A stretch of DNA of 19,149 nucleotides from the IMG/VR virus record IMGVR_UViG_2681813236_000002, one strand, 5' to 3'. This DNA comes from a virus. Lineage: Duplodnaviria > Heunggongvirae > Uroviricota > Caudoviricetes. Positions 9,001 to 12,000 of this stretch are shown in pieces (within the stretch, counting starts at the first letter, position 1; each line of letters starts with the position of its first letter). The position numbers were made by a program.

Positions 9001-12000
9001 CTCAATAAAATAAGCCTCCACTCCCAGCAACATCTTTGTATAACCAACACGGGCAGATTTAATCAGGTTAACCGTGCGAATCAGATCGTTGCCCATACAG
9101 TTCATGATGCCAACCTGAAACGGCAGTGTTTCCCACCGCCCCGGGGTATAAGACGACTCTTTAGGAAGGTAATAATGTTTATTGGCCCACTGAACTGTCG
9201 TCAGTGGAACAGGAATAATGAGAGATAAAAGCCCTGTAGCTATCGCACCGGCTGCATTAGCTGCCTTCTGCGCGTCTGAAATCATCGATCCACCCGCCCA
9301 CGTTTTCACCGGCCTTAGCTGCAACATTGGAGGCTTTCGCGATTTCAGTTTTCACCACATCAAGGTGTGATGGTGAAATGTCCGGATATTTACGCTGTAA
9401 TGTCAACGGCACACGCACAAGTATCCCCGAAATCTCCTGTGCCACACGTTGCAGAATGAAGGTAAACAGTTCAGTTTCCAGCACTACTCCGTCTTCACGG
9501 GCATTTTTCAGTTCCTGCGCATCTGCCTGCGCTTTTGTGAGCCTGTAGCGTTCATAGTCAATGGTGCCGGGTTGTAAATCTGACTCCGCTGCCGCACGCA
9601 AATCGTCCAGTTCTTTGCGGAGCTTTTCGTTTTCGATATCAGTTTCCCTCTGCGCATACCACTGAATTGCCATGGCAGTATCAAATACAGATTCAATGCC
9701 CTTACTACCTTTGGAGGCGCAAGGGAGTCCCTGAGACTGCCAGCGTTCAATCGTCCGCGGGTCCACGTTGAAAATTTCGGCAAGCCTCTTTTTATTAACC
9801 TTCATGAAAACAACCCATTATCAAATACAAGGCCCGACATGAAAACGCCAGAAAAAGGCATTTTCGGACACTTTCATGTCGGACCTTTACGGATGAAATA
9901 TTAAAAAAAACAAAAAGTTATATTCGAGAAGTACCGACACGATTTTCCCTGAAAAATTTTCATAAATAGTGAAAAACCGCGAGGTCTCCGCCCCGTAACG
10001 CTCCGGATCGCCGAAAAGGACCCGAAAATGATAATACATATCAATTACACTTAAAGGGGGGGTAATTTGTTCACATCAACACTCCGGACCCAATGGCCTT
10101 CTACTCTGGTTTTGCCATAAAATAGTCCTGATACATATTCATATCAGTTAGTCATATACGGAAAAAATATGGGCATTACTATTTTCAGCAGTGAAATACA
10201 GGATGTTGATAGCGAAGCGATGTACAAGAGCTGGCTAGCGACCCATTCCGATGGATTCGTTATTAATCTGCTTAAGTCGGCCAGCGGGAAAGGCAGAACA
10301 AGTGATGCCAGATTTACGCGGATTCATCGAGCCTCATGCAAATCAATCAACCCGTTAATCAGTCCTAAAAATCACGCCAGCTTTACTACTGGCCGATACC
10401 AAAAAGTATGTGTTCTTACGCTTGACGAGGCCGAGTCCACCGCAGGCCAACTAACAGGACTGCCAACCATCCAGAGATGTCATTGGTGTATATAAGATAC
10501 TGCCGTTACGATGGACCTGCCCATTGTGATGGCAACAAAAAACCGCCCGGAGGCGGCTTACCGATAGGATCTGACTATTTATAGATGTCCATCTTATCCA
10601 AAAAATCCTTTAAAGATTTTTCAAAATTCACCTTACTTTCGGTGTAAGAATAATAATTTTGAAAATGTGTATCCAAATCGTTTAGCGCATCTTTTTGGGC
10701 GCTAGTCAGATCATCAACTACGGCATACCCCAAGTATTTGAGCTGTAGATACAGTTCCGATAACTTTTCGTGCATTAACCATTCATCAATATAGTCTTGA
10801 TTTTTTTGGCTAGCCAATACTTCAAAATTAGGTGACTTGGAAACAACCTGACCGTTAGTAACATTCTTGCTTGTGAATGTTTTTGGCATTAGCCCTACTT
10901 CTACATACAGCTTACCTGCTGCTTTTTTGATCTCACGTTTAGCTTTTACTTTCTCTTGTGATTTCCAAGTGCCCATTGCGTAGATAGCTACGCCTAAGGT
11001 TATTGCAGAGAGCACTACAGAAACCCAAGAGGCAATCGCTGAAGTTTTCGTCCATTCTAAAGACTCCCACGCGGCCCTCGCTGCTGACTTAGCAGTCTCG
11101 ATATTTTGGTAATCTAACCAATCCCGTATCATTGATATGTATCCAACATTTGTTTATGAGTTCAGATTTTATTCATCTTTGATACGGATTGTAATTTTTT
11201 TTGTCACTGAACGCATTGTCTTTTCACATATTCCTGCAGATAACCAACCTGCTTCGTCACTGTGTCGACTCGTTCTCTGAGGGTGAAATAATCCCGTTCA
11301 GCGGAGTCAGTAAGTCGGGAGGAGGCTGCATTACCCACACCGGAGGCGGTGGTGGCTTCACGCACTGACTGACAGACTGCTTTGATGTGCAACCGACGAC
11401 GACCAGCGGCAACATCATCACGCAGAGCATCATTTTCAGCTTTCGCATCAGCTAACTCCTTCGTGTATTTTGCATCGAGCGCAGCAACATCACGCTGACG
11501 CATCTGCATGTCAGTAATTGCCGCGTTCGCCAGCTTCAGTTCTCTGGCATTTTTGTCGCGCTGGGCTTTGTAGGTAATGGCGTTATCACGGTAATGATTA
11601 ACAGACCATGACAGGCAGACGATGATGCAGATAATCAGAGCGGAGATAATCGCGGTTACTCTGCTCATACCTCAATCTCTCTGACCGTTCCGCCAGCTTC
11701 TTTGAATTTTGCAATCAGGTTGTCAGCCTTATGCTCGAACTGACCATAACCAGCGCCCGGCAGTGAAGCCCAGATATTGCTGCAACGGTCGATTGCCTGA
11801 CGAATATCACCGCGGTCAATCATCGGCAAAGCGCCACGCTCTTTAATCTGCTGCAATGCCACAGCGTCCTGACTTTTGGGAGAGAAGTCTTTCAGGCCAA
11901 GCTGCTTACGGTAAGCATCCCACCAACGGGAAAGAAGCTGGTAACGTCCGGCGGCTGTTGATTTGAGTTTGGGGTTTAGCGTGACAAGTTTGCGAGGGTG

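What the first reader, a model, noticed from the sequence alone, without database searches (positions are those of the whole stretch)
10575..11196. AT-rich membrane-protein moron with its own promoter and terminator between the lysis cassette and cos
Lambda carries the lysogenic-conversion gene bor between Rz and cos. Here that slot holds a 185-aa gene of visibly much lower GC than the phage backbone, encoding one transmembrane helix plus a charged soluble domain with no motif I recognise. It has a well-spaced sigma70-like promoter (TTACAA-17-TAAAAT) and a GC-hairpin/T-run terminator, so it could be expressed from the prophage independently of the late operon. That arrangement is typical of lysogen-expressed accessory genes (superinfection exclusion, abortive infection, envelope modification). 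This is my best candidate for an undescribed function in the window.
Basis: partly seen in the sequence, partly recalled or inferred. Interest (0 to 1): 0.72.

Follow-up and report, generated by a model that had tools for sequence, protein, structure and literature searches.

The report
Membrane-protein moron between lysis and cos
A lambda-like prophage carries, in the slot where lambda keeps bor, a self-contained AT-rich gene cassette for a small inner-membrane protein of an uncharacterised prophage-only family; it is a well-formed accessory gene, possibly anti-phage, but its function is not known.

Summary
ORF 10575-11132 (-) encodes a 185-aa protein under purifying selection. Its GC is 38.9% against 52% for the window. 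It has one TM helix (aa 32-54) and a predicted cytoplasmic four-helix bundle.

It belongs to PHROG 6169 (function unknown). It has no Pfam or NCBIfam family and no specific structural match. It is rare: 2 of 5,426 complete E. coli genomes, 1 of 50,697 phage records, no plasmids.

In about 67 non-redundant loci, nearly all family members sit between a lysis cassette and a terminase, whatever the lysis or terminase type. Every one is about 10 GC points below its flanks.

Close E. coli relatives with near-identical flanks carry bor/iss or other genes in this slot. The window's cargo segment is 10050-11273.

The -10 element is conserved, with TAnnnT invariant. The terminator hairpin shows compensatory changes.

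Across the wider family, an anti-Shine-Dalgarno arm abuts the -10 and covaries with the SD. This suggests translation only from the cassette's own transcript, not from late read-through RNA. The window has a weaker long-range version.

Moron status is well supported. An anti-phage role (exclusion or abortive infection) is inferred only. Moderate interest.

The parts
10575..11132 (-). CDS of the 185-aa protein (PHROG 6169). N-terminal amphipathic tail aa 1-31, TM helix aa 32-54, basic juxtamembrane helix (TWKSQEKVKAKREIKK), C-terminal four-helix bundle aa 88-180.
11166..11194 (-). Sigma-70-type promoter candidate: -35 TTACAA 11194-11189, 17-nt spacer, -10 TAAAAT 11171-11166. An A8 tract lies just upstream. 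Predicted transcript start is about 11157-11162.
   Evidence: site found, not above chance alone; TAnnnT invariant in 7 loci; family-wide -10 enrichment
11180..11190 (-). 5' arm (AAUCCGUAUCA) of a predicted long-range pairing with the start-codon region. It lies inside the promoter spacer, so it would be present only in read-through RNA.
   Evidence: duplex -18.8 kcal/mol against -9.3 +/- 2.7 in shuffles; 1 of 500
11120..11131 (-). 3' arm (UGAUACGGGAUU): the UG of the start codon plus codons 2-4.
10530..10559 (-). Intrinsic terminator: hairpin AAGCCGCCTCCGGGCGGTTT plus T-run. It is also a mosaic junction shared with other cargo genes.
10050..11273 (.). Variable cargo segment. Homology to bor/iss-carrying E. 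coli prophages stops at 10049 and resumes at 11274, inside the 3' end of Rz.
10169..10495 (+). Second cargo gene (108 aa), convergent with the 185-aa gene. It is an independent module: 8 E. coli genomes carry it, 6 of them without the 185-aa gene.
11204..11668 (-). Rz i-spanin, the upstream backbone flank. Rz1 is embedded at 11257-11448.
9983..9994 (-). Lambda-like cosN (GGGGCGGAGACCT...). Nu1 at 9257-9805 and gpA at 7357-9327 follow.
   Evidence: likeness to the lambda cos sequence is from my own knowledge

Best explanation
This is an autonomous moron in the lysis-to-packaging cargo slot of a lambda-like prophage.

Shown. A horizontally acquired, AT-rich cassette (promoter, one gene, terminator) replaces the bor/iss cargo of sister prophages. 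It encodes a conserved 185-aa protein of PHROG 6169.

Predicted. The protein is a bitopic inner-membrane protein. A short N-terminal tail faces the periplasm, and a basic juxtamembrane helix plus a four-helix bundle lie in the cytoplasm.

Inferred about expression. It is made at a low level from its own sigma-70 promoter in the lysogen, and its transcript ends at the hairpin terminator. Q-antiterminated late RNA, which must cross the cassette to reach cos and the terminase genes, carries an extra upstream segment. That segment pairs with the ribosome-binding region and start codon. The protein would therefore be kept low during the prophage's own lytic growth.

Inferred about function (my estimate about 0.4). 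It acts at the inner membrane against superinfecting phage. It could block genome entry. Alternatively the cytoplasmic bundle could sense an incoming component and the TM segment could compromise the membrane, giving abortive infection.

The confidence of 0.5 is for the whole statement. Moron status alone is about 0.85.
For: Real gene under constraint.

Foreign composition: 38.9% against about 51% GC in the window. The family gene is below its flanks in 66 of 66 loci, mean 39.0 against 49.6%.

Presence/absence:
- Flanks 96-98% identical to CFT073 and VG38-53E1, which carry iss + a TonB-like gene, or bor + ybcV + ybcW + ylcI.
- E. coli C4 has a 68-aa ORF between the same terminator and Rz.
- Only 2 of 5,426 E. 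coli genomes carry this gene.

Slot conservation across the family:
- Upstream neighbours: lysozyme 21, Rz 10, LysC 5, GH19 5, GH108 2.
- Downstream neighbours: HNH + Terminase_4, Terminase_2, Nu1/GpA, Terminase_3.
- 49 of 58 loci have a co-directional ORF of at least 400 aa within 3.5 kb downstream.

Promoter:
- The -10 TAnnnT is invariant in 7 loci.
- In 46 unique family leaders, 36 have a >=5/6 -10 hexamer ending 20-40 nt before the ATG. That compares with 8.2 +/- 2.5 in shuffles and 6% for other genes of the same loci.

Terminator: compensatory stem changes; present within 120 nt in 37 of 67 loci.

RBS occlusion:
- Family hairpin on alignment A8: 71.3% of cells paired against 65.6 +/- 1.4 in shuffles (0 of 500).
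- Covariation score 0.344 against 0.253 (0 of 500).
- Slid controls 37-53% paired.
- In the window, the duplex has z = -3.6.

Topology: 39 of 40 members have more K/R after the TM than before it, 3.75 against 0.78.

Fold: AF2 mean pLDDT 83, long helix 2-80 plus a helical bundle.

The slot is a known home of conflict genes. Tai defence genes lie 'upstream of the packaging module' (PMC11364771). In family loci the same slot also holds kinase/PP2C pairs, Acb2/Tad1-like genes, Rha and colicin-immunity genes.
Against: - There is no experimental transcript start, so both the promoter and the isoform-specific translation model are sequence inference.
- The window's -35 is poor (3-4 of 6), and the site alone is not above chance.
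- The window's long-range pairing is shared only with close kin (L001, L002, L007). It is absent in L006, L005 and L003.
- The compact hairpin of the wider family is missing from this subfamily.
- In some family loci a second, more distal -10-like hexamer could place the transcript start upstream of the hairpin.
- Unlike most defence genes, the family was not found on plasmids or outside lambdoid prophages. Nearly all members keep one position, which could equally reflect a phage life-cycle role.
- About a third of family loci, including the E. coli/Shigella 162-aa group, have no terminator and run straight into the HNH/terminase genes.
Confidence: 0.5

Rival explanations
1. It is a lysogenic-conversion gene that benefits the host in a way unrelated to phage, such as envelope or stress physiology, metabolism or colonisation. 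It would be expressed from the same autonomous cassette.
For: The same slot holds bor/iss serum-resistance genes in thousands of E. coli prophages. The moron architecture says nothing about which benefit is conferred. There is no defence-model hit.
Against: The bulk of the protein is predicted to be cytoplasmic, so it cannot act on serum or the cell surface as Bor/Iss do. It has no enzymatic motif and no Pfam family. It is rare and patchy, unlike broadly useful conversion genes.
Confidence: 0.25
2. It is a late-acting accessory of the phage's own cycle, tied to the end of the lysis cassette. Examples would be a lysis-timing or holin regulator, or protection of the lysing cell from re-adsorbed progeny. 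It would be translated from late RNA.
For: It is co-directional with, and nearly always directly downstream of, the spanin or endolysin genes in about 67 loci. It was never found outside that context. About a third of family loci lack a terminator and are embedded in the operon.
Against: The lysis cassette is complete without it: holin, endolysin, Rz and Rz1. Sister prophages with 94-98% identical flanks lack it. Several copies are truncated or split. The conserved -10 plus the anti-SD arm argue against translation from read-through RNA. It matches no holin, antiholin or spanin family.
Confidence: 0.15
3. It is a distant homologue of the validated single-gene defence PD-lambda-6.
For: PADLOC model PDLC04020 hits aa 37-105 at E = 0.0029, 15.8 bits. 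PHROG 36733 hits the same residues.
Against: Only the query among 40 family members hits the model. The match covers the TM helix and the basic stretch, which are compositionally biased. PD-lambda-6 appears to be the lipoprotein listed in PMC9519451, and a 2024 preprint calls it lipoprotein-related; the gene span gives about 131 aa. The 185-aa protein has no cysteine, so it has no lipobox.
Confidence: 0.03

Closest known systems
Lambda bor / E. coli iss moron (between Rz and cos)
   Same: Same slot in sister prophages with 96-98% identical flanks. Both are accessory genes not needed for lytic growth.
   Different: Bor/Iss is a lipoprotein of about 97 aa. That it sits in the outer membrane is from my own knowledge. 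It is transcribed against the late operon. This gene is co-directional, encodes a cysteine-free inner-membrane protein with a cytoplasmic domain, and shows no sequence similarity.
HK97 gp15 and P22 SieA (prophage-expressed inner-membrane superinfection-exclusion proteins)
   Same: Small inner-membrane proteins encoded by lambdoid prophages. gp15 is the textbook moron. SieA blocks DNA entry at the inner membrane (PMC10883804).
   Different: SieA has three predicted TM helices, whereas this protein has one. There is no sequence relationship. Those genes sit elsewhere in the genome. Exclusion has not been tested here.
Tai (tail assembly interference) prophage defence genes
   Same: [quoted passage not shown]
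   Different: The word 'transmembrane' does not occur in the main text of the Tai paper. No tblastn match was found to the phi80 Rz-cos region.
T4 gene e and I-TevI transcript-specific translation
   Same: A promoter lies within or beside the 5' strand of a hairpin that hides the RBS. Long read-through RNA is therefore silent and promoter-proximal RNA is translated (PMC3014915). The PHROG 6169 leaders have the same layout.
   Different: Here the promoter is a host sigma-70 type and the timing is inverted: on in the lysogen, off in late RNA. This rests on prediction and covariation only. In the window itself the pairing is long-range and poorly conserved.
PHROG 6169
   Same: The window protein matches at E = 2.7e-15 over aa 26-180, and all 40 distant relatives match.
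   Different: The family has no annotation, so membership gives no function.

Membership tests
Moron (Hendrix/Juhala sense) | An extra gene present in some, and absent from other, otherwise homologous phage backbones | tested here: met
   Cargo segment 10050-11273 is replaced by bor/iss sets in CFT073 and VG38-53E1, and by a 68-aa ORF in strain C4.
Moron (Hendrix/Juhala sense) | Base composition different from the flanking genes | tested here: met
   38.9% against about 51% GC in the window. The gene is below its flanks in 66 of 66 family loci.
Moron (Hendrix/Juhala sense) | Own promoter upstream | tested here: inconclusive
   The site alone is not above chance. The -10 TAnnnT is invariant in 7 loci and strongly enriched family-wide. 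No transcript-start data exist.
Moron (Hendrix/Juhala sense) | Own factor-independent terminator downstream | tested here: met
   Hairpin plus T-run at 10559-10530, with compensatory stem changes in 7 loci.
Moron (Hendrix/Juhala sense) | Expression from the repressed prophage | not testable with these tools
   Needs RNA or protein data from a lysogen.
PHROG 6169 | Significant match to the family profile over most of its length | tested here: met
   E = 2.7e-15, aa 26-180 on profile positions 6-159 of 165. 40 of 40 relatives also match.
PD-lambda-6 defence protein | Credible profile match shared by the family | tested here: not met
   E = 0.0029 for the query only; 1 of 40 members.
PD-lambda-6 defence protein | Lipoprotein (signal peptide with a lipobox cysteine) | tested here: not met
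   The protein has no cysteine, and its hydrophobic segment starts at aa 32.
Bor/Iss | Match to the Bor family; small lipoprotein | tested here: not met
   No Pfam hit at E<=1. No cysteine.
Holin, antiholin or spanin lysis proteins | Family match, and being needed to complete the lysis cassette | tested here: not met
   No Pfam or PHROG lysis family. Holin, endolysin, Rz and Rz1 are already present. Sister prophages lack the gene.
P22 SieA-type exclusion protein | Three TM helices; blocks DNA entry | tested here: not met
   One hydrophobic segment here, against three for SieA. Function was not tested.
T4 gene e-type isoform-specific translation | A structure that hides the RBS or start codon in the long transcript | tested here: met
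   Prediction only. Window duplex -18.8 kcal/mol, z = -3.6. The family hairpin is supported by covariation.
T4 gene e-type isoform-specific translation | The internal promoter starts transcription downstream of the 5' arm | tested here: inconclusive
   The 5' arm lies in the promoter spacer in the window and abuts the -10 in the family. Transcript starts are not known, and some loci have an alternative distal -10.

The most novel reading that the evidence does not exclude
PHROG 6169 is a new single-gene anti-phage family of lambdoid prophages, a membrane-anchored cytoplasmic sensor/effector or entry blocker. Self-immunity would be built into the RNA: the cassette's -10 element is fused to an anti-RBS arm, so the protein is made only from the lysogenic transcript and is switched off in the prophage's own late read-through RNA.
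Probability: 0.25. Interest if true: 0.65.

Novelty: new member of a known kind. Interest (0 to 1): 0.42.

Why it matters
The lysis-to-terminase junction of lambdoid prophages is a cargo hot-spot that already yields serum-resistance and defence genes. This cassette represents a conserved but unannotated family restricted to that hot-spot in Enterobacterales prophages.

If it proves to be an exclusion or abortive-infection protein, it adds a compact one-gene system.

If the fused promoter and anti-RBS layout works as predicted, it would show one way a prophage can keep an accessory membrane protein on in the lysogen and off during its own lytic growth. That layout would also give a sequence signature for finding lysogen-only genes embedded in late operons.

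If neither holds, it is one more hypothetical moron.

Tried and rejected
- Pfam, NCBIfam and PADLOC scans of the protein and of 40 relatives gave no family. The only hints (PD-Lambda-6, CCC_membrane, T4SS_pilin) are weak, TM-driven and not shared.
- PDB sequence search with the family profile found nothing meaningful.
- Foldseek against viral models found nothing at E<=0.001. The afdb50 library was unavailable.
- Rfam on 9700-11500 gave no credible RNA family.
- RNAalifold on the MAFFT alignment of leaders predicted no structure, because the arms were out of register. I named the helix and counted pairs instead.
- A partner gene was considered and rejected. The convergent 108-aa ORF co-occurs only in the two closest E. 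coli loci and is found without the 185-aa gene in six genomes.
- An internal start at Met82, giving a soluble bundle, was rejected. Pro83 is conserved but Met82 is not.
- Plasmid searches were empty.
- A species-representative genome scan with the close alignment was empty.
- A literature search for accessions or the PHROG number returned nothing. Brenes & Laub 2025, on prophage defence systems, is not held.
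Full report
**What is in the window**

The window is a lambda-like prophage read in reverse. On the minus strand, in order:
- holin, 12145-12495
- endolysin, 11665-12141
- Rz, 11204-11668 (Pfam Phage_lysis, 8.5e-52), with Rz1 embedded at 11257-11448
- the 185-aa ORF, 10575-11132
- a hairpin terminator, 10559-10540
- a lambda-like cosN at about 9994-9983
- Nu1, 9257-9805 (1.9e-81)
- the gpA terminase, 7357-9327

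A 108-aa ORF on the plus strand (10169-10495) lies between the terminator and cos.

Yes.
- The ORF is conserved. 11 relatives at 52-94% identity share 53 invariant residues.
- It evolves under purifying selection. dN/dS is 0.18 against the Citrobacter copy at dS about 0.5.
- Its GC is 38.9% (GC3 39.2%), against 50-52% in Rz, R, S, Nu1 and TerL.
- It has a single hydrophobic segment, aa 32-54. The 31 residues before it carry net charge -1 and the 31 after it carry +6.
- Across 40 family members, 39 have more Lys/Arg after the helix than before it, 3.75 against 0.78 in 15-residue flanks. This predicts the N-terminus outside and the C-terminus inside.
- AlphaFold2 with the 11-sequence alignment gives mean pLDDT 83. 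It shows one long helix (aa 2-80) running through the membrane, then a helical bundle at aa 88-180.

**What family is it?**
- No Pfam or NCBIfam model matches the protein or its relatives.
- It belongs to PHROG 6169, annotated 'unknown function' (E = 2.7e-15). All 40 distant relatives hit the same PHROG.
- A profile search of 1.84 billion representative proteins returned only 47 hits at E<=1e-3. Nearly all are 137-220 aa.
- The family signature is the TM helix, a juxtamembrane motif A..A...W..QE..K.K..FKK, then L..MP, and in most members a C-terminal FVF.
- Structure searches gave only generic helical bundles.
- A PDB sequence search and a literature search for its accessions found nothing.
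- The one defence-library hit does not hold up. PD-Lambda-6 matches at E = 0.0029 over the TM helix and basic stretch. Only 1 of 40 members shares it.
- The Vassallo paper lists a lipoprotein among its new systems, and a 2024 preprint calls PD-lambda-6 lipoprotein-related. Its gene span gives about 131 aa. The window protein has no cysteine, so it cannot have a lipobox.

**Where does the family live?**

This exact gene is rare:
- 2 of 5,426 complete E. coli genomes
- one isolated phage among 50,697 records, Salmonella phage 118970_sal3, where one copy is split into two ORFs
- no plasmids

I collected 81 loci, of which 67 are non-redundant. They come from E. coli/Shigella, Citrobacter, Enterobacter, Atlantibacter, Pantoea, Yersinia and uncultivated viral contigs. 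Close protein homologues also occur in Klebsiella aerogenes and Rahnella.

The two nearest upstream ORFs are dominated by endolysins and spanins: Phage_lysozyme 21, Rz 10, LysC 5, GH19 5, GH108 2. The two nearest downstream ORFs are dominated by packaging genes of at least four unrelated types: HNH + Terminase_4, Terminase_2, Nu1/GpA, Terminase_3/DUF1441.

In 49 of 58 loci with enough sequence, a co-directional ORF of at least 400 aa starts within 3.5 kb downstream. The position is therefore conserved while both neighbouring modules change. A few neighbour ORFs are capsid or tail genes, so one or two loci may hold the gene elsewhere.

**It is cargo, not backbone**

E. coli prophages whose Nu1-cos flank (98.5-98.7%) and Rz-side flank (93.5-97%) match the window carry different genes in the same place. 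CFT073 has iss, a TonB-family gene and a hypothetical. VG38-53E1 has bor, ybcV, ybcW and ylcI.

Homology breaks at 10049/10050 and resumes at 11274, inside the last 23 codons of Rz. The cargo segment is therefore 10050-11273.

The segment is itself modular.
- Strain C4 shares the 108-aa gene and the terminator, with homology up to 10559. It has an unrelated 68-aa ORF between the terminator and Rz.
- Strain FHI_NMBU_03 has two other genes there.
- The viral contig L007 shares the 185-aa gene, the terminator and Rz, but not the 108-aa gene.

In all 66 family loci tested, the gene is more AT-rich than its flanks, mean 39.0 against 49.6%.

**Expression signals**

On its own it is unremarkable, since promoter-like sites in the region number 6 against 3.5 +/- 2.1 in shuffles. 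Comparison changes that.
- In an alignment of seven loci, the spacers of the two most divergent (52-62% protein identity) are otherwise unalignable. The T, A and last T of the -10 hexamer are nevertheless invariant, at a fixed 33-34 nt from the ATG.
- Across 46 unique family leaders, 36 have a >=5/6 match to TATAAT ending 20-40 nt before the ATG. This compares with 8.2 +/- 2.5 in composition-matched shuffles (maximum 17) and 6% for other genes in the same loci.
- 30 of the 46 fall in a 9-nt window, against 3.8 expected.

The terminator hairpin is kept in all seven close loci with compensatory changes: GCCGCC/GGCGG, GCCAC/GTGGC, CCGCCC/GGGCGG. A canonical terminator follows the gene within 120 nt in 37 of 67 loci.

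In a lambda-type genome, the Q-modified late transcript must read through this site to reach Nu1 and A (established lambda biology). A terminator here therefore only makes sense for RNA that started without Q, that is, at the cassette's own promoter.

In most family leaders, the -10 hexamer is followed at once by an anti-Shine-Dalgarno arm that pairs with the SD. An example is TACAAT|CACCTCA|aacatag|TGAGGTG|agcATG. In several leaders the -10 hexamer itself pairs with the spacer and AUG (TATAATCG...CGATTATG).

I tested this on a structure-naive MAFFT alignment of 31 leaders, using a named 10-bp helix.
- 71.3% of cells are paired, against 65.6 +/- 1.4 in column shuffles (0 of 500).
- 34 cells changed on both sides, against 19.6 (0 of 500).
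- The covariation score is 0.344, against 0.253 (0 of 500).
- Slid registers give 37-53% paired.

The leaders fold more stably than those of other genes in the same loci, despite 34% against 47% GC.

A transcript started about 7 nt after the -10 would lack the 5' arm. The simplest reading is that read-through late RNA is translationally silent and the cassette's own RNA is active. This is the logic documented for T4 gene e and I-TevI (PMC3014915), with the timing inverted.

Caveats:
- No transcript starts are known.
- Some loci have a second, distal -10-like hexamer.
- Shortening any RNA reduces its structure.

**Does the window itself have this feature?**

Only in a weaker form. Its -10 is 33 nt from the ATG and there is no compact hairpin.

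However, the segment upstream of the predicted start contains AAUCCGUAUCA (11190-11180, inside the promoter spacer). This can pair with UGAUACGGGAUU (11131-11120, the start codon and codons 2-4). The duplex energy is -18.8 kcal/mol, against -9.3 +/- 2.7 for shuffled upstream segments (z = -3.6, 1 of 500).

The two E. coli copies and L007 share the pairing. The Citrobacter copy and the two 52-62% relatives do not. I treat it as suggestive.

**What it most likely does**

Three things are shown: an accessory cassette, a conserved membrane protein, and a hot-spot location. Two are inferred: expression in the lysogen and silencing in late RNA.

The function is open. I favour action against superinfecting phage at the inner membrane, at about 0.4. 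My reasons:
- The slot is a known home for conflict genes. Tai defence genes sit 'upstream of the packaging module' (PMC11364771). Kinase/PP2C pairs, Acb2/Tad1-like genes, Rha and colicin-immunity genes appear in the same slot in family loci.
- Small prophage-expressed inner-membrane proteins such as P22 SieA (PMC10883804) and HK97 gp15 are established exclusion factors.
- Switching the protein off during the phage's own late phase would fit a product that could harm its own cycle.

Against this reading:
- There is no homology to any defence protein.
- The family is confined to lambdoid prophages and essentially to one position. Most defence genes are not so confined.
- A third of family loci lack a terminator.

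The rivals are a phage-unrelated host benefit (0.25) and a late life-cycle accessory (0.15). The presence/absence data and the RBS occlusion argue most strongly against the late-accessory rival.

**Verdict**

The functional guess is reasonable but untested.

The cassette is a new, uncharacterised member of a familiar class, not a new kind of system. The family-wide fusion of promoter and anti-RBS arm is the most interesting by-product and can be tested directly.

Noticed in passing
Related loci L008-L081 (for example L008:6959-7006, L065:6944-6991); alignment A8: In most PHROG 6169 genes, a -10-like hexamer (TAnnAT) sits 21-29 nt before the ATG and is directly followed by an anti-SD arm that covaries with the SD. 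In several, the hexamer itself pairs with the AUG region. This suggests translation only from the gene's own transcript, as for T4 gene e.
   Followed up: yes
window 10169-10495 (+): A convergent 108-aa ORF lies between the terminator and cos. Its codon-position GC is atypical and PGAP does not annotate it in the two near-identical E. coli prophages I inspected (L001, L002). It has a 53%-identical annotated homologue beside the small terminase of Klebsiella phage ST846-OXA48phi9.2. It occurs in 8 E. coli genomes, 6 of them without the 185-aa gene. It is a second, independent cargo gene of unknown function, with a Cys/His-rich C-terminus (RCHWC).
   Followed up: partly
L087:3409-3948 (-), E. 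coli FHI_NMBU_03, same slot: A 179-aa protein shares the N-terminal tail and TM module of PHROG 6169 (MNADYIAYESLVATRNTAEWAFWSM...). Its C-terminal domain is unrelated (PHROG 16957, no Pfam). The membrane anchor therefore appears to be a reusable module fused to different cytoplasmic domains.
   Followed up: partly
window 10530-10559 and L086:2990-3011: The terminator hairpin is a mosaic junction. The same hairpin ends three different cargo arrangements: the 185-aa gene, a 68-aa ORF in strain C4, and the 108-aa module. The other junction falls inside the last 23 codons of Rz (11274).
   Followed up: partly
Loci L008, L014, L019-L022, L034, L040, L043, L055, L078-L080, about 45-65 nt upstream of the family ATG: A conserved inverted repeat (AGGCATTCACTGAGTGCCT) shows compensatory variants (GCCA...TGGC, AGACA...TGTCT) and overlaps the -35 region. 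It is followed by a second -10-like GATAAT. It could be an RNA hairpin or a palindromic operator.
   Followed up: no
window 12618-12860 (-) and the AT-rich stretch 12600-13400: An 80-aa CxxC...CxxC zinc-ribbon ORF (PHROG 7682, E = 4.9e-58, GC3 28%) sits upstream of the holin in another low-GC patch (about 39%). It may be a second moron near the late promoter.
   Followed up: no
L005:4278-5673 (-): The prophage carrying the 62%-identical homologue has a KwaA (Kiwa) gene pair between Q and the lysis genes, on the opposite strand. That prophage therefore carries a known defence system in a neighbouring slot.
   Followed up: no
L015, L016, L045, upstream of the family gene: A Ser/Thr protein kinase gene and a PP2C phosphatase gene lie directly upstream of the family gene in three viral contigs.
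   Followed up: no
L082 (Salmonella phage 118970_sal3, record positions 36847-37400 and 76310-76852): The only isolated phage with this family carries two copies in a 77-kb record that also contains an attR feature. One copy is split into two ORFs. The record looks like two joined prophage-derived genomes.
   Followed up: no
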